Shown here: positions 17,494-61,696 of the stretch, piece after piece
How positions within the stretch are numbered: position 1 is the first letter of the stretch
Layout: each line of letters begins with the position of its first letter
Virus record (IMG/VR): IMGVR_UViG_2925939204_000001
DNA: 64,000 nt
From: a virus
Taxonomy: Duplodnaviria > Heunggongvirae > Uroviricota > Caudoviricetes
Direction: 5' to 3' (one strand)
Translations under genes and position numbers: made by a program
The notes under the pieces: model-generated
Database searches by the model: none
What the model saw: only the letters and a program-made list of their open reading frames with translations
What the model was told of the DNA's origin: nothing

Positions 17494-17505
17494 ATGTTAG
17501 AAAAA
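17494..17505 (+). promoter_or_regulatory. operator-like motif ATGTTAGAAAAA
   Basis: Member of dispersed TGTGTTAGAAAA family; ~55 bp upstream of the locus-A promoter. Confidence 0.4.
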
Positions 17506-17557
17506 TAATTTGAATTTTCGAACATAAACAATAAAATAAATCATCAAAAATTTGATG

Positions 17558-17586
17558 TTGATCTTCCATGTTTTCAGGCTTATATT
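17558..17586 (+). promoter_or_regulatory. sigma70-type promoter TTGATC-N17-TATATT of immunity locus A
   Basis: Near-consensus -35/-10 with 17-nt spacer; identical promoter at 51207-51235. Confidence 0.6.
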
Positions 17587-17592
17587 CACGCC

Positions 17593-17833
17593 GTTGCAGC
17601 AAATTCTGCGACCGGGTTTAGCAGCCTGAATGTACATGCGGACAACCGCAGATATCCGATATTGCGGTATTTTTGTGTCCGTAAAACCATGTTACGCCCG
17701 AATTATGGTGGGGCGTGATGGGGAGGCTTCGGCCTGCTGGTTTCATGTACGCCAGTCTGCTAACCCCGTCACGTCCTGCCACCCGTTTAGCAGCGGGTAG
17801 CAGGTTGTTAAACCTGTACATGAGGCCGTAACT
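17593..17833 (+). ncRNA. c4-like antisense RNA / leader region of immI-like locus A
   Basis: Sites a1/b1 (17617-17638), complementary b'/a' (17744-17763) and a2/b2 (17786-17822) overlapping the SD of the next ORF; all six sites co-vary in paralogue B. Confidence 0.5.
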
Positions 17834-18049
17834 ATGGTTAATGCCAATCCTTGCGCACGCCCGGAATTTATCTGGCGCTTTTATTCCTGCACAAAACACA
17901 CCTACATCAGCGTAATGGCAGCTACTGAGGCTGAAGCGCGTTCATTTCTTCCTACAGATCCATGCATTTTTGCCGCTCGCTTTAAACTCGATGCTCTGGA
18001 CGTTTTGACCTACTGGAACCGCCCAATGAACTGCGTGGAGGTGCATTAA
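17834..18049 (+). CDS. Icd-like small protein (71 aa)
   Basis: SD overlapped by b2 site; N-terminus MVNANPCARPEFIWRF conserved with paralogue at 51483; stop overlaps ant start. Confidence 0.5.
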   Translation: MVNANPCARPEFIWRFYSCTKHTYISVMAATEAEARSFLPTDPCIFAARFKLDALDVLTYWNRPMNCVEVH

Positions 18050-19047
18050 TGGACGCAGTAACTATCAATAACAAACCATTCCCGACTCTCGAATATAAAA
18101 ATCAGCGTGTAGTGACCTTTGAGATGATTGATGAGGTGCACGAACGTGTTGATGGGGCAGCCAGGGGAACATTTAAGCGAAACAGAAGTCGTTTCATTGA
18201 AGGGGTGGATACTTATGTTATTGATTATTCTGAAAAGGGCTTTTTAAGCCCATTTGGAATTGATGTCCCCCCGCGCGGTTTGCGCGTGTTCACTGAGTCC
18301 GGCTATCTGATGATTGTTAAGTCATTCAATGACGATCTGGCCTGGCAAGTGCAACGTGAGCTGGTAAACAGCTATTTTCGTATTAAGCAATTAATACCGG
18401 AGCACTCACCGCTAAAATCAAAAGCCGAAATCCTGGCCGAAATGGCGCAAATGCATCTTGAGCATGAACGCCGGATCAACGCCGTAAATGCCCAGGTAGC
18501 CGAGGTATCAGCACAAGTATCGATGGTCGCTGAAACACTCGAGCAAATCAAGAAAGGCAATATTCCGGAAGGCTACATTGGCTACCGCCAGCTGGCGGCG
18601 AAATGTGGCCTGACTGAAGCAAAATGTCGCAACCTGGTCAACGCTTACCGGATTCCCACCGATACGCATGAGTTTTTAACTCCCGATGGTTTGCTTGCGC
18701 GACGCTCCATTGTGGCCCTGGCCCCCTTCCGGAAAGCCTTTAAGCAGGTGATGTCGGAGGCAGAACCACGCAATAAACGCTGGTATCATCCAAAGATGGG
18801 GATGTTTCAGGCAATCCACCATCCTGTGCCTGAAAGCCCAAAGGATAATCTGTCACTACATACCGTCAGAGAGAAGATCAGGACTGGATACGCAACAGTG
18901 TGTCGTCGTTCTTCCTGGCCTGAAGGTATATGGGTGTGGCCCGAAGGTGGATCACGAAAGCACTGGCGCACTATCCGGGACGGGAAAATCCATGCTATTG
19001 ATTTAGCGCCAGAGGATATTGTTGCTACGGACTGGATTGTTAGTTAA
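18049..19047 (+). CDS. antirepressor (Ant)-like protein with C-terminal DUF2829-like segment (332 aa)
   Basis: N-terminal Bro-N/ORF6N-like region; central block KKGNIPEGYIGYRQLAAKCGLTEAKCRNLVNAYRIPTDTHEFLTP shared with 51707 paralogue; C-terminus ATVCRRSSW...LAPEDIVATDWIVS. Confidence 0.6.
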   Translation: MDAVTINNKPFPTLEYKNQRVVTFEMIDEVHERVDGAARGTFKRNRSRFIEGVDTYVIDYSEKGFLSPFGIDVPPRGLRVFTESGYLMIVKSFNDDLAWQVQRELVNSYFRIKQLIPEHSPLKSKAEILAEMAQMHLEHERRINAVNAQVAEVSAQVSMVAETLEQIKKGNIPEGYIGYRQLAAKCGLTEAKCRNLVNAYRIPTDTHEFLTPDGLLARRSIVALAPFRKAFKQVMSEAEPRNKRWYHPKMGMFQAIHHPVPESPKDNLSLHTVREKIRTGYATVCRRSSWPEGIWVWPEGGSRKHWRTIRDGKIHAIDLAPEDIVATDWIVS

Positions 19048-19053
19048 TTACTG

Positions 19054-51206: not shown

Positions 51207-51235
51207 GTTGATCTTCCATGTTTTCAGGCTTATAT
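51207..51235 (+). promoter_or_regulatory. sigma70-type promoter TTGATC-N17-TATATT of immunity locus B
   Basis: Identical to locus A promoter. Confidence 0.6.
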
Positions 51236-51241
51236 TCATGC

Positions 51242-51482
51242 CGTCGTAGCAAATTCTGCGACCAGGTTTGACAGCCTGAATGTTAGTGCGGACAACCGCA
51301 GATTTCCGATATTGCGGTATTTTTGTGTCCGTAAACCGCGTTACGCCCGAATTATGGTGGGGCGTGATGGGGAGGCTTCGGCCTGCTGGTTTCACTAACG
51401 CCAGTCTGTCAACCCTGTCACGTCCTGCCACCTGTTTGACAGCGGGTAGCAGGTTGTTAAACCTGTTAGTGAGGCCGTAACT
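51242..51482 (+). ncRNA. c4-like antisense RNA / leader region of immI-like locus B
   Basis: Sites a1/b1 (51266-51287), b'/a' (51393-51411), a2/b2 (51434-51470) with compensatory differences from locus A. Confidence 0.5.
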
Positions 51483-51707
51483 ATGGTTAATGCCAATCCT
51501 TGCTCACGTCCAGAATTCATCTGGCGTTTCCACTCCCTGCAAAAACACTGCGATCACTTCGCAATTGCCGCAACCGAAAAAGAAGCCCGTTCTCTGATCC
51601 CTGATCAGTATGGTGTTCTTACTGGTCGTTTCTCTACTTCCCCACAACCAAACACTAATCCCTGGTATCGCAATATTACCAATCCCGGAATTGCGGAGGC
51701 ACACTGA
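51483..51707 (+). CDS. Icd-like small protein (74 aa)
   Basis: N-terminus MVNANPCSRPEFIWRF paralogous to 17834 ORF; stop overlaps next start. Confidence 0.5.
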   Translation: MVNANPCSRPEFIWRFHSLQKHCDHFAIAATEKEARSLIPDQYGVLTGRFSTSPQPNTNPWYRNITNPGIAEAH

Positions 51708-52414
51708 TGGAAATCTGCATTCTTGAAAAGCCATCAATGACCAGCATTGAGATCGCTGAGCTGGTGGGAAGTCGCCCTGATAACGTTAAACGCACTATTG
51801 AACGCTTGAGTAAATCAGGTGTTATTCCACTTCCTCCAATGGAGGTTTCCGAAAATATCAATAACTTAGGATTTAAAGTTAAAAATTCACACTACGTCTT
51901 CGAAGGCGAGCAAGGCAAGCGTGACAGTATCATTGTCGTTGCGCAGCTTTCTCCCGAATTTACCGCCCGGCTGGTGGACCGCTGGCGCGAACTGGAAGAA
52001 CAAGCACGCCAGCCGTTGACCGAAATAGAGATGATCGCCGCAATGGCTGCAAATGCAGTTCAGCAGCAAAAGCGGCTTCATGTTGTTGAGTCAAAGGTTA
52101 GCCAGGTGGTAGAAACCGTTGAGCAAATCAAGAAAGGCAATATGCCGGAAGGCTACATTGGCTACCGCCAGCTGGCGGCGAAATGTGGCCTGACTGAAGC
52201 CAAATGCCGTAACCTTGTCAACGCTTACCGGATTCCCACCGATACGCATGAGTTTTTAACTCCAGAGGGGGTATTGTCGCGTCGTTCCATCGTGGCCTTA
52301 TCTCCCTTCATGAATGCTTTTAACCGGATGATGTCGGAGGCTGAACACCGAGGAAAACGCTGGTATCACCCCAAAATGGGGCAATTCCAGGTGATCGGTT
52401 GGGGAGGTGAGTGA
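51707..52414 (+). CDS. antirepressor-like protein (235 aa)
   Basis: N-terminal HTH-like SIEIAELVGSRPDNVKRTIERL; shares KKGNMPEGYIGYRQLAAKCGLTEAKCRNLVNAYRIPTDTHEFLTP block with 18049 gene. Confidence 0.55.
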   Translation: MEICILEKPSMTSIEIAELVGSRPDNVKRTIERLSKSGVIPLPPMEVSENINNLGFKVKNSHYVFEGEQGKRDSIIVVAQLSPEFTARLVDRWRELEEQARQPLTEIEMIAAMAANAVQQQKRLHVVESKVSQVVETVEQIKKGNMPEGYIGYRQLAAKCGLTEAKCRNLVNAYRIPTDTHEFLTPEGVLSRRSIVALSPFMNAFNRMMSEAEHRGKRWYHPKMGQFQVIGWGGE

Positions 52415-52611
52415 TGGACATCATGCAGGCGGTAAAAAAAATCAGGGAAGGACAGGCTGAAGTGTGCCGCCGTAAAGCATGGAGTATTGATGTATGGGCC
52501 TGGCCTGATAATTACTCTACTACCGGATGGTTTTGTATTAATGGACTCAAGATCCGGGAAGTTTATTTATCGACGGCTGATATAGTCGGTAATGATTGGA
52601 TCGTGACTTGA
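52411..52611 (+). CDS. DUF2829-like small protein (66 aa; Tad2-like candidate)
   Basis: Pattern ...QAEVCRRKAW...LSTADIVGNDWIVT (R..W near N-terminus, DxxxxDW(I/E)V C-terminus). Confidence 0.45.
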   Translation: MMDIMQAVKKIREGQAEVCRRKAWSIDVWAWPDNYSTTGWFCINGLKIREVYLSTADIVGNDWIVT

Positions 52612-52617
52612 AGCGTG

Positions 52618-52646
52618 ATGCCCCGGCCTGGCCGGGGCTTTTTTCA
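52618..52646. terminator. bidirectional terminator (GCCCCGGCC-TG-GCCGGGGC + TTTTTT)
   Basis: 9-bp GC stem with T-run; between convergent genes. Confidence 0.7.
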
Positions 52647-53129
52647 TGCCTCATTAGTTGAGGTTGCTGCGTCTCCGACTGGTAACAGAGCGGTATTGCG
52701 TGGTTCGCCAGCAGGCCAGCGATAGCCAGACACTCTTGATGTTGGGAATGCGCGAATATTAACCGCATCCCCCTGGTTCCCACCCAGGACAAGCAGATCG
52801 CCATTGGCGCGGCGTCCGACAACGAAGCCTACGTGCCCACCGCCTACGCGGGTAAATACAACGATACATCCGTATGCCGGTGTATCTAATTTCTCGCCCC
52901 AATCCAGATAGGATTTTGCCGACTCAAATCTTGTTGAGCGGATGCCTACACGTTCCAGCATTGCACCGACAAATGCTGCGCACCACGGCGTTTCATCGTC
53001 TTTAATTCCGCCGCGCTTGATGTCGCGCCAGAACTGAACGATTTCAGGGTTGTGTTTAGCGCCTTTTATTTCAGTCAGGCCAATGTGCTTACGGGCTTCA
53101 ATTAGCCAGCGAGGTTCAATGTTTGCCAT
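52644..53129 (-). CDS. NlpC/P60-CHAP-like putative cell-wall hydrolase (161 aa)
   Basis: WCAAFVGAML (Cys) ... GCIVVFTRVGGGHVGFVVG (His) ... LGGNQGDAV arrangement typical of Cys-His peptidoglycan peptidases. Confidence 0.55.
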   Translation of the reverse strand: MANIEPRWLIEARKHIGLTEIKGAKHNPEIVQFWRDIKRGGIKDDETPWCAAFVGAMLERVGIRSTRFESAKSYLDWGEKLDTPAYGCIVVFTRVGGGHVGFVVGRRANGDLLVLGGNQGDAVNIRAFPTSRVSGYRWPAGEPRNTALLPVGDAATSTNEA

Positions 53130-60986: not shown

Positions 60987-61481
60987 TTGTTGTTATTATT
61001 TCGCATATTTACTATCAATGTGTGTGTTAGAAAAATAGCGCGAAAGAGAAGGCGTCGCAGTGAATATTCTGAAACATCCCCACATGCCGCAGCTCTTAGA
61101 GAACTGGAGAAAAACCCAGATCTAATCAAAAGGAACCATGAGCATTACGAGCAGGTTCGCGTCCTGGACTGGATGTATCGCAATATGCGTTATGTGTATG
61201 AGCATACTCACGCCACTCCAAACGGTGGCCTGCGAGGCATAAGGACGGCAATAAAAATGGTGGCAGAGGGCCAAAAGAAGGGATATCCCGATCTTTCTAT
61301 AGACCTTGCTTGTGGGGGATACCACGGAATGCGCATTGAGATGAAACATGGGAGAAATCGCCTGACTCCCGAACAACTCGTCTGGATGACTCGCCTCACA
61401 GAAGCCGGTTACTACTGCTTTGAGGCGCGCAGTGCCGCTGAAGCCATAAAAGCTATCACGGAGTATGTTTGTCTTGATTAA
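60987..61481 (+). CDS. VRR-NUC domain nuclease (start uncertain)
   Basis: EQVRVLDWMYRN...HATPNGGLRG...GYPDLSIDLACGGYHGMRIEMKHGRNRLTPEQLVWM fits VRR-NUC (PD-(D/E)xK) pattern; only TTG 60987 or GTG 61020 in frame upstream, no SD, operator-like motif overlaps the 5' end. Confidence 0.55.
   Translation: MLLLFRIFTINVCVRKIARKRRRRSEYSETSPHAAALRELEKNPDLIKRNHEHYEQVRVLDWMYRNMRYVYEHTHATPNGGLRGIRTAIKMVAEGQKKGYPDLSIDLACGGYHGMRIEMKHGRNRLTPEQLVWMTRLTEAGYYCFEARSAAEAIKAITEYVCLD
61023..61035 (+). promoter_or_regulatory. operator-like motif TGTGTTAGAAAAA
   Basis: With partial inverted partner TCTAAC at 60981. Confidence 0.4.
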
Positions 61482-61495
61482 ACGGAGAAATCGTT

Positions 61496-61696
61496 TTGCG
61501 TTTACTTAACGTGGCAGAACTTATCCCTGCAGGAACTAATGCTATCGCTCGTCGTCGCTCATGGCAGCAGGCTCTATGTATTGAGATCTCGAAACGTATC
61601 AATGGAAGTTTTGAAGCTCGCAATATTGTTACTGGCGATAAGGTTCACATAACCCCGGAAAGTGCAAGCGCTGATGATTGGGAGTTTGTACATTGA
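61496..61696 (+). CDS. DUF2829-like small protein (66 aa; Tad2-like candidate)
   Basis: ...AIARRRSWQQ...ITPESASADDWEFVH. Confidence 0.45.
   Translation: MRLLNVAELIPAGTNAIARRRSWQQALCIEISKRINGSFEARNIVTGDKVHITPESASADDWEFVH

What the first reader, a model, noticed from the sequence alone, without database searches (positions are those of the whole stretch)
52411..52611. Three DUF2829-like (Tad2-like) small proteins: candidate immune-signal sponges
The 66-aa ORF at 52411 (QAEVCRRKAW...LSTADIVGNDWIVT), the 66-aa ORF at 61496 (AIARRRSWQQ...PESASADDWEFVH) and the C-terminal ~55 aa of the antirepressor at 18049 (ATVCRRSSW...LAPEDIVATDWIVS) share the N-terminal R..W and C-terminal D...DW(I/E)V signature that I associate with DUF2829. 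The Thoeris anti-defence protein Tad2, which sequesters the cyclic ADP-ribose signal, belongs to this family as I recall. Two copies sit at the ends of the antirepressor operons and one behind darB, all positions typical of anti-defence cargo.
Basis: partly seen in the sequence, partly recalled or inferred. Interest (0 to 1): 0.6.

Follow-up and report, generated by a model that had tools for sequence, protein, structure and literature searches.

The report
Minimal Tad2-like modules in antirepressor cassettes
Two of the three small proteins are very diverged, stripped-down relatives of the phage immune-signal sponge Tad2, and they always sit at the end of antisense-RNA-controlled antirepressor cassettes of D6-like plasmid prophages; the third is only loosely related, and no sponge activity has been shown for any of them.

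Summary
The window is a D6-like (P1-type) phage-plasmid. All three sequences exist as described.

- **ORF1 and the Ant1 tail.** ORF1 (likely start ATG 52414, 65 aa) and the last 65 aa of Ant1 (18850-19044) are clear homologues (45% identity).
- **Link to Tad2.** They are remote, core-only relatives of Tad2/DUF2829. The Pfam PF11195 hit is full length but below threshold (14.5 vs 25 bits). A sister protein scores 23.9 bits. SPO1 Tad2 takes the top three PDB fold matches. The profile-profile alignment is collinear and beats 100 shuffles.
- **Differences from Tad2.** They lack the b2-b3 insertion and two of the four main gcADPR contacts, so the Tad2 pocket is not conserved.
- **ORF2.** ORF2 (61496-61696) resembles the ORF1 family by profile only. 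It has no Pfam hit, and its fold matches are generic SH3/Tudor barrels.
- **New context.** Every informative family member found lies at the end of a C4-antisense-RNA cassette. It is fused to Ant, coupled to Ant, or the sole cargo.

The sponge reading is plausible but unproven (about 0.4). An antirepressor-linked role is a serious rival.

The parts
52414..52611 (+). ORF1 (D6 orf17 homologue), 65 aa. It is a core-only Tad2-like protein and the last cistron of immI cassette 2. An alternative GTG start lies at 52411.
   Evidence: TGATG overlap, GGAGG SD. PF11195 14.5 bits. Foldseek top 3 hits are SPO1 Tad2. hhalign to Tad2 is collinear. phrog_7385 E 1.6e-46.
18850..19044 (+). C-terminal Tad2-like domain (aa 268-332) of antirepressor Ant1.
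   Evidence: 45% identical to ORF1, E 8e-17. phrog_7385 E 9.6e-15 on aa 273-331. dN/dS 0.10 across 10 alleles.
18049..19047 (+). Ant1: ORF6N N-terminal domain, Roi-like middle (phrog_6610), Pro-rich linker, then the Tad2-like domain.
   Evidence: Homologues in lambdoid phages stop at about aa 256 and lack the last domain.
17580..17786 (+). Regulatory leader of immI cassette 1: c4-a1b1 targets (17580-17632) and C4 antisense RNA (17701-17786).
   Evidence: Rfam RF03163 53.5 bits and RF01695 71.7 bits. Its recognition sequences differ from those of cassette 2.
17834..18049 (+). icd-like ORF of cassette 1 (71 aa), ending where ant1 starts.
   Evidence: similar to D6/P1 icd.
51230..51435 (+). Regulatory leader of immI cassette 2: c4-a1b1 targets (51230-51282) and C4 antisense RNA (51350-51435). 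It has P1-type specificity.
   Evidence: Rfam. About 90% identical to the P1 c4 region.
51483..51707 (+). icd-like ORF of cassette 2 (74 aa).
51707..52414 (+). Ant2 (D6 orf18, Rha/Roi-like, 235 aa). It has the same middle domain as Ant1 but stops at the linker, so ORF1 is the split-off counterpart of the Ant1 tail.
   Evidence: The fused relative P0013/D6 orf82 (313 aa) has the same layout.
52620..52638 (+). Intrinsic terminator (8 G-C pairs plus a T6 run) closing cassette 2 just after ORF1.
   Evidence: sequence.
61496..61696 (+). ORF2 (D6 orf11), 66 aa, TTG start. It is a helix plus a small beta-barrel, a remote relative of the ORF1 family, and is not assignable to Tad2.
60987..61481 (+). 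pmgM-like VRR-NUC gene immediately upstream of ORF2 (context only).

Best explanation
Shown:
- ORF1 and the last 65 residues of Ant1 are one narrow protein family. It has the Tad2/DUF2829 fold reduced to its core: helix a1, a five-stranded sheet and a short helix, without the b2-b3 insertion.
- This module is always the last coding element of a P1-type immI cassette (a1b1 targets, C4 antisense RNA, usually icd, usually an Ant/Roi-type protein).
- It occurs fused to Ant, as a translationally coupled separate cistron (ORF1), or as the only gene of the cassette in other D6-like plasmids.

Inferred:
- C4 RNA blocks translation of the cassette in an established lysogen. The module would therefore be made only on fresh infection or when immunity collapses, together with the proteins that commit the phage to lytic growth.
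- The most likely single mechanism is that it oligomerises like Tad2 and binds a small nucleotide-type ligand. The kept Trp (W24) and Asp (D57), plus the family-specific Arg-Arg and Trp-rich b1-loop-b2 segment, would form the site.
- On this reading it soaks up a host immune signal (CBASS, Thoeris or Pycsar type) during the lytic programme. The ligand is unlikely to be gcADPR bound in the Tad2 manner.
- ORF2 is a separate, more distant small barrel in the pmgM-pmgR-pmgS operon, and I do not include it in this mechanism.
For: Homology and fold:
- PF11195 matches ORF1 over its full length at 14.5 bits. The sister protein P0014 scores 23.9 bits, E 6e-5, and P0014 is tied to ORF1 by the profile at E 1.8e-10.
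- The AF2 model (pLDDT 77) has SPO1 Tad2 8smf/8smg as its top three of 350,542 PDB chains. Their probabilities are 1.00, 0.99 and 0.98; the next hit is 0.38.
- hhalign to 83 classical Tad2 sequences scores 23.1 over 63 columns. Shuffles gave 10.8 +/- 2.4, maximum 21.3.
- The equivalents of ligand-contacting W25 and D79 are invariant in the family.

Regulation and context:
- C4 and a1b1 lie upstream in the window.
- They also lie upstream in 19/19 ORF1-type and 17/17 informative Ant-fused IMG/VR loci.
- In L087 and L088 the C4 RNA is followed directly by the stand-alone module, and the b2-like target lies over its ribosome-binding site.
- The module is therefore autonomous. It is absent from Ant/Roi homologues of other phages and from P1 Ant1.

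Family precedent:
- Tad2 domains tolerate N-terminal fusions, as in the Acb4-Tad2 protein of phage Pm86.
- Tad2-family pockets have diversified to many ligands.
- ORF1 alleles show dN/dS of about 0.76. The changes sit in segments that align with the Tad2 pocket loops. This would fit an arms race.
Against: - No member reaches the Pfam cut-off, and the Ant1 tail has no Pfam hit at all.
- N26 and W73 of SPO1 Tad2 are replaced (S/P and V/I). S76 is kept in ORF1 but is Ala in the Ant1 tail. T78 is lost in both. The WNGK and PW.xSQTD motifs that were invariant or nearly so in my classical Tad2 set are absent.
- Li et al. report the gcADPR site as conserved in about 99% of Tad2 proteins.
- The b2-b3 insertion carries the a2 dimer interface, and in long forms the cyclic-dinucleotide pocket. 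It is missing here, so the tetramer cannot be assumed.
- The family is extremely narrow: 7 hits in 1.84 billion representatives and only D6 in the 50,697 phage records. All members are tied to one regulatory cassette. That is unlike the widely spread classical Tad2 and fits a lineage-specific partner better.
- The reported Tad2 fusions are to other sponges, not to antirepressors.
- The high dN/dS of ORF1 could equally mean relaxed constraint.
- No oligomer or ligand modelling could be run.
Confidence: 0.4

Rival explanations
1. Antirepressor module. The Tad2-like fold has been recruited as a working part of D6-type antirepressors. It could be the piece that binds or inactivates the C1-type repressor, or an oligomerisation domain for Ant. 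C4 RNA controls it because it threatens lysogeny, not because it is an anti-defence gene.
For: - It is always inside immI cassettes.
- It is fused to two different Ant N-terminal types: ORF6N in the window, and Rha in D6 orf82/P0013.
- It is translationally coupled to Ant2 where split.
- In L087 and L088 it occupies the place of icd-ant as the only C4-controlled product.
- Its distribution is narrow and lineage-restricted. That fits a phage-specific protein partner.
- The Ant-fused copy is under strong purifying selection, dN/dS 0.10.
- The Tad2 ligand pocket is not conserved.
Against: - The only experimentally defined antirepressor of this circuit, P1 Ant1/Ant2, lacks the domain. So do Ant/Roi homologues elsewhere.
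- All characterised members of the fold family bind small molecules.
- The Ant body is broken by frameshifts in 6 of 19 fused loci while the tail ORF stays open, so covalent linkage to Ant is not required.
Confidence: 0.3
2. ORF2 is not a Tad2-like protein in any useful sense. It is a small SH3/Tudor-like barrel that belongs functionally to the conserved pmgM(VRR-NUC)-orf11-pmgR-pmgS operon, with a DNA- or virion-related role. It resembles ORF1 only through shared ancient fold features.
For: - No Pfam hit.
- hhalign to classical Tad2 aligns only 8 columns, and 3 of 100 shuffles reach the score.
- The synteny is fixed and there is no C4 cassette.
- Purifying selection, dN/dS 0.18.
Against: - The profile match to the ORF1 family is strong and collinear: 31.7 vs a shuffle maximum of 16.8, over 60 columns.
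- The predicted order of secondary-structure elements is the same as in ORF1.
- RRxxW and DDW sit at the matching positions.
Confidence: 0.5
3. The stand-alone ORF1 is a decaying remnant. It would be a C-terminal Ant domain cut off by a nonsense or frameshift event, evolving nearly neutrally with no function of its own.
For: - dN/dS of about 0.76 among 8 alleles.
- One allele has lost the first Arg of the CRR motif (L112), and truncated or frameshifted forms exist (P0002, P0003, P0016).
- Ant genes of these cassettes are often broken.
Against: - The 65-aa frame is intact in 18 of the 19 IMG/VR loci, and also in D6 and in the window (L113 differs at its 5' end). The SD and TGATG coupling seen in the window support translation, and a strong terminator follows.
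- The split lies exactly at the interdomain linker.
- dS is only 0.056, so the ratio is poorly determined.
- Stand-alone relatives P0014 and P0015 exist with their own C4 control.
Confidence: 0.1

Closest known systems
Tad2 (Thoeris anti-defence 2; Pfam PF11195, formerly DUF2829), e.g. SPO1 gp34.65, PDB 8SMF/8SMG/8WJE
   Same: - Same predicted topology: a1, then a five-stranded antiparallel sheet with a short helix before the last strand.
- The conserved core positions G17, R22, W25, D79, D84 and W85 all have equivalents in ORF1 (G14, R20/21, W24, D57, D62, W63).
- Both are small phage-encoded proteins.
- SPO1 Tad2 is the best fold match in the PDB.
   Different: - 65 aa instead of 89 or more. 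The b2-b3 insertion (SPO1 residues 36-59, a2 dimer interface) is absent.
- N26 and W73 are replaced, and the WNGK and PW.xSQTD motifs are absent.
- There is an extra family motif, CRRxxW(S/P)xGxWxWP(D/E).
- The Pfam score is below the cut-off.
- The module is fused or coupled to antirepressors and controlled by C4 RNA. Tad2 is free-standing or fused to Acb4 or Sequestin.
- The family is confined to D6-like phage-plasmids.
P1 immI operon (c4-icd-ant1/2)
   Same: - a1b1 targets, C4 antisense RNA and an icd-like ORF are followed by a coupled 'ant' gene.
- Cassette 2 has the P1-type C4 recognition sequences.
   Different: - The Ant proteins are ORF6N/Rha-Roi types unrelated to P1 Ant1/2, and they carry or are followed by the Tad2-like module, which P1 lacks.
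- There are at least two cassettes per element, with different C4 specificities.
- Some relatives have cassettes with the module as the only gene.
Sponge fusion proteins (Acb4-Tad2 of Pasteurella phage Pm86; Tad2-Sequestin)
   Same: A Tad2-type domain sits at the C-terminus of a longer protein, joined by a linker.
   Different: In those proteins the partner is another sponge. Here the partner is a DNA-binding-type antirepressor/Roi protein.
Small SH3/Tudor-like beta-barrels (for ORF2)
   Different: The scores are generic for any small barrel. ORF2 also has an N-terminal helix and the RRxxW...DDW pattern shared with ORF1.

Membership tests
Tad2 / Pfam PF11195 (DUF2829) | Profile match at or above Pfam's gathering score (25 bits) | tested here: not met
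   ORF1 scores 14.5 bits (E 0.053) but is aligned over 1-72 of 73 profile positions. The Ant1 tail and ORF2 have no hit. Relatives score P0014 23.9, P0015 14.0 and P0012 11.9 bits.
Tad2 / Pfam PF11195 (DUF2829) | Fold: N-terminal helix plus five-stranded antiparallel sheet with a short helix before the last strand | tested here: met
   This applies to ORF1. The AF2 model has elements H4-12, E19-21, E29-32, E39-44, E47-52, H55-59, E63-65, and its three best PDB matches are SPO1 Tad2. ORF2 has the same element order but no Tad2 match, so it is inconclusive.
Tad2 / Pfam PF11195 (DUF2829) | gcADPR-contacting residues (SPO1 W25, N26, W73, D79; also S76, T78, H71) | tested here: not met
   In the hhalign alignment, using the residue list: ORF1 has W24, S25, V51, D57 (S54, A56, R49). 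The Ant1 tail has W, P, I, D (A, E, H). Two of the four main contacts are kept.
Tad2 / Pfam PF11195 (DUF2829) | b2-b3 insertion with helix a2 forming the dimer interface of the homotetramer | tested here: not met
   There is an 18-column gap in ORF1 opposite SPO1 residues of about 38-56. The interface is described.
Tad2 / Pfam PF11195 (DUF2829) | Homotetramer with ligand pockets at protomer interfaces | not testable with these tools
Tad2 / Pfam PF11195 (DUF2829) | Sequesters an immune signalling nucleotide and rescues phage from Thoeris, CBASS or Pycsar | not testable with these tools
   This needs binding and plaque assays.
P1-type immI cassette | a1b1 target sites and C4 antisense RNA upstream on the same strand | tested here: met
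   Rfam RF03163 and RF01695 score above gathering at 17580-17786 and 51230-51435.
P1-type immI cassette | icd-like ORF abutting or overlapping the downstream ant gene | tested here: met
   icd-like ORFs at 17834-18049 and 51483-51707 end where ant1 and ant2 start.
P1-type immI cassette | Antirepressor homologous to P1 Ant1/Ant2 | tested here: not met
   Ant1 is ORF6N plus a Roi-like middle, and Ant2 is Rha/HTH plus a Roi-like middle. An HMM of the module does not match P1 Ant1.
SH3/Tudor-like small barrels (ORF2 only) | Significant structural match to the fold | tested here: inconclusive

The most novel reading that the evidence does not exclude
D6-like phage-plasmids use their C4-antisense immunity cassettes to deliver a previously unrecognised, core-only branch of the Tad2 sponge fold. 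The module is free, coupled to, or fused with the antirepressor. The same RNA switch that releases the lytic decision would therefore also release a sequestering protein for a host immune nucleotide, probably not gcADPR. This would be a new sponge subfamily with a rebuilt pocket (CRR / Trp-rich loop). It would also be the first sponge-antirepressor fusion.
Probability: 0.3. Interest if true: 0.65.

Novelty: new variant of a known kind. Interest (0 to 1): 0.5.

Why it matters
- **If the module binds an immune signal.** It would define the smallest known Tad2-type sponge. It would show that the fold can work without the insertion that builds the Tad2 dimer. It might also point to a ligand not yet linked to phage defence, as earlier sponges did for gcADPR and His-ADPR.
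- **If it is the repressor-directed part of D6-type antirepressors.** That would be a case of a sponge fold re-used for protein control, and it would change how the 'ant' genes of these plasmids are read.
- **Either way.** The strict link between this module and C4 RNA cassettes, including cassettes where it is the only gene, is a simple, testable regularity. I found no description of it in the searched literature.
- **Relevance.** D6-like plasmid prophages are common in Salmonella and E. coli.

Tried and rejected
- **Single-sequence searches.** Searching the PDB sequences with ORF1 gave only a chance hit. Word-indexed homologue searches returned only 3-7 near-identical proteins per query.
- **Exhaustive HMMER search.** The profile found only 7 hits in 1.84 billion representatives, so no deep alignment could be built.
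- **Narrow Tad2 HMM.** An HMM built from 83 SPO1-like Tad2 sequences scores ORF1 at only 6.6 bits. The link appears only with Pfam's broader model, with profile-profile comparison and with fold search.
- **Profile search of PDB sequences.** SPO1 Tad2 ranks fourth at E 1.1, which is not significant on its own.
- **NCBIfam.** It has no model for any of the proteins.
- **Species-representative genomes.** The scan found no relative.
- **Technical failure.** A first shuffle run timed out and was repeated in parallel.
- **Ligand-gated antirepressor idea.** I considered that the module lets Ant sense an immune signal so the prophage can escape a doomed cell. I rate it unlikely, because C4 RNA should keep Ant untranslated in lysogens.
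- **AcrIIA7-type anti-CRISPR role.** I did not pursue it. The Tad2 papers found no Cas9 inhibition. From my own knowledge, E. coli lacks type II CRISPR.

Full report
**Where we are.** The window is 98.5-99.3% identical to Escherichia phage D6, a P1-type plasmid prophage. ORF1 corresponds to D6 orf17 and ORF2 to D6 orf11, and both are annotated as hypothetical. PHROGs places them in two small families of unknown function, phrog_7385 and phrog_7206.

**The observation.**
- All three sequences exist as quoted.
- ORF1 most likely starts at ATG 52414, not at GTG 52411. The ATG overlaps the ant2 stop codon (TGATG) and is preceded by GGAGG at a 7-nt spacing. The database proteins are 65 aa and begin MDIMQ.
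- A strong terminator follows at 52620-52638.
- ORF2 starts at TTG 61496 behind a GGAG. Its stop overlaps the TTG start that D6 annotates for the pmgR-like gene.
- ORF1 and the Ant1 tail are unambiguous homologues: 45% identity, E 8e-17.
- ORF1 and ORF2 share only a weak BLASTP match over the N-terminal 23 residues. Their family profiles, however, align over 60 collinear columns with score 31.7. One hundred column shuffles gave 10.1 +/- 2.1, maximum 16.8.

**Is it Tad2-like? ORF1 and the Ant1 tail.** Four partly independent lines agree on a remote relationship:
- Pfam PF11195 (now named Tad2-like) is the only Pfam family that ORF1 touches. The match covers 1-72 of 73 profile positions but scores 14.5 bits against a cut-off of 25.
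- The exhaustive profile search found very few relatives. One of them, P0014, is tied to ORF1 at E 1.8e-10 and itself scores 23.9 bits (E 6e-5) on PF11195.
- An AlphaFold model of ORF1 (pLDDT 77) has SPO1 Tad2 as its first three PDB matches, with probabilities 1.00, 0.99 and 0.98. The next match drops to 0.38.
- I built an alignment of 83 classical Tad2 domains from SPO1, Pm86, PE007 and IMG/VR. The ORF1 family aligns to it over 63 columns with score 23.1, above all 100 shuffles (maximum 21.3).

Weaker signals are consistent but not significant alone. SPO1 Tad2 is fourth in a PDB profile search at E 1.1. Both Tad2 and ORF1 touch phrog_643.

**Is it Tad2-like? ORF2.**
- There is no Pfam hit.
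- Only 8 columns align to Tad2, and 3 of 100 shuffles reach the score.
- ORF2 is thus linked to Tad2 only through ORF1.

**How it differs from Tad2.**
- SPO1 Tad2 binds gcADPR with W25, N26, W73 and D79, helped by S76, T78 and H71. HgmTad2 uses the equivalent W21/N22 and S90/T92/D93.
- In the alignment ORF1 keeps W24 and D57, which are invariant in the family. It has S25 for N26 and V51 for W73. The Ant1 tail has P and I at those positions.
- The motifs WNGK and PW.xSQTD, invariant or nearly so in my classical set, are absent.
- They are replaced by a family-specific CRRxxW(S/P)xGxWxWP(D/E) segment.
- The b2-b3 insertion is missing altogether. In Tad2 it supplies helix a2 and the dimer interface, and in long forms the cyclic-dinucleotide pocket.
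- Li et al. estimate that only about 1% of Tad2 proteins lack a functional gcADPR site. These proteins would belong to that minority or lie outside the family proper.
- I therefore call them core-only Tad2-fold proteins, not Tad2 family members.

**Context: the most informative result.**
- Rfam finds two complete P1-type immI leaders in the window. Each has a1b1 targets plus C4 antisense RNA, at 17580-17786 and at 51230-51435. Each is followed by an icd-like ORF and an Ant gene.
- The Tad2-like module is the last coding element of both cassettes. It is fused in cassette 1 and is a coupled cistron in cassette 2.
- Ant2 plus ORF1 is a split version of the Ant1 layout, cut exactly at the Pro-rich linker. 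D6 orf82/P0013 is a fused version with the Ant2-type N-terminus.
- Homologues of the Ant body in lambdoid and other phages end at about residue 256 without the module. P1 Ant1 also lacks it.
- In IMG/VR, 19 of 19 ORF1-type loci have C4 RNA about 1 kb upstream. So do all 17 Ant-fused loci with enough upstream sequence.
- In two other D6-like plasmids (L087, L088) the a1b1 and C4 leader is followed directly by a stand-alone module (P0014, P0015) with no icd or ant. A b2-like C4 target lies over its ribosome-binding site.
- That cassette sits in the same capsid-proximal variable locus where the window, unlike D6, carries cassette 1.
- The module is therefore autonomous, mobile between Ant types, and always under C4 control.

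**Mechanism.**
- By analogy with P1, C4 RNA blocks translation of the cassette in lysogens (annotation). The module should therefore be produced only on infection of a naive cell or on collapse of immunity.
- Two readings explain this. I put the sponge-like reading first (about 0.4):
  - Every characterised member of the fold binds small nucleotides at oligomer interfaces.
  - Two pocket residues are invariant, and the new motif is rich in Arg and Trp.
  - Tad2 domains tolerate N-terminal fusions.
  - Tad2 pockets are known to be evolvable.
  - Silencing a sponge in the lysogen makes sense for a prophage that benefits from host immunity.
- The rival reading (about 0.3) is that the module is the repressor-directed or oligomerising part of D6-type antirepressors:
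  - The family is extremely narrow.
  - It is never found outside immI cassettes.
  - It can be the sole C4-controlled product.
  - It has lost the Tad2 pocket.
- Selection data do not decide between them. The Ant-fused copy is strongly constrained (dN/dS 0.10). ORF1 alleles show 0.76 at low divergence, with changes concentrated in segments aligned to Tad2 loop L12, strand b4 and helix a3.
- ORF2 is constrained (dN/dS 0.18). It sits in a fixed darB-ulx-orf13-VRR_NUC-ORF2-pmgR-pmgS arrangement with no C4 leader. I treat its function as separate and unknown.

**Novelty.** Tad2 and the immI circuit are both well known. The new elements are a 65-aa core-only branch of the fold, its fusion or coupling to antirepressors, and its strict association with C4 RNA cassettes. 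Literature searches for Tad2 with antirepressor, and for C4 RNA with phage-plasmids, returned nothing relevant.

**Verdict.** The family assignment is partly supported: remote for two sequences and unsupported for the third. The sponge function is unproven.

Noticed in passing
window 17580-17840 vs 51230-51490: The two immI cassettes have different C4 recognition sequences, with matching changes in a1/b1, in C4 itself and in a2/b2. Cassette 2 is identical to P1 (GACAG / TTAGTG). Cassette 1 reads AGCAG / TACATG. One plasmid would then carry two independently regulated, heteroimmune C4 switches.
   Followed up: partly
window about 17500-19050 (cassette 1) compared with D6 54-56 kb: Cassette 1 is an insertion or replacement of about 1.6 kb relative to D6, in the variable locus between the capsid/orf52 genes and upfB/upfC. 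D6 keeps its Ant-fused cassette elsewhere, at about 74-75 kb. Other D6-like plasmids carry the sole-cargo C4-module cassette at this same locus.
   Followed up: partly
L126-L131 (IMG/VR D6-like contigs), e.g. L129 1756-2698 and L128 1774-2698: In 6 of 19 Ant-fused loci the Ant gene is interrupted by a frameshift or stop inside the Roi-like middle domain, while the C-terminal Tad2-like ORF stays open. The same 120-aa tail ORF is called in four contigs (L127, L129-L131), three of them from different samples, so it is probably not a sequencing error.
   Followed up: partly
L114-L132, about 1256-1392 in each locus: The a1b1 leader of the D6-type Ant-fused cassettes scores above gathering for Rfam isrK (RF01394) rather than c4-a1b1. 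IsrK is, as I recall, the Salmonella Gifsy-1 sRNA/mRNA that controls an antirepressor. This hints that isrK and the C4 a1b1 leader are the same kind of element.
   Followed up: no
window 52414-52611 and alleles in L095-L113: ORF1 alleles differ mostly by amino-acid changes (dN/dS about 0.76 at dS 0.056). Residue 46 is L, R, Y or C. Changes cluster at residues 25-28, 30, 35, 46-47, 52 and 58. This is either diversifying or relaxed selection, and the data are too few to tell.
   Followed up: partly
window 52644-53129 (- strand): A 161-aa peptidoglycan-hydrolase-like gene (D6 orf16, annotated 'baseplate hub subunit and tail lysozyme') lies convergent to ORF1. It sits between the immI cassette and darB, right against the ORF1 terminator.
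   Followed up: no
window 60987-61481: The pmgM-like gene just upstream of ORF2 carries a VRR-NUC nuclease domain, by a weak Pfam hit on the homologues in L092 and L093. ORF2 and the pmgR-like gene overlap by 4 nt, suggesting that those two are translationally coupled; pmgM-like ends 14 nt upstream of ORF2.
   Followed up: no
L087 4956-5291: Upstream of the called start of P0014, the frame is open back to the 3' end of C4 and reads MSVMAAT. This resembles the SVMAAT stretch inside the window's icd-like protein. It may be a trace of a deletion that removed icd and ant and joined the leader to the Tad2-like gene.
   Followed up: no
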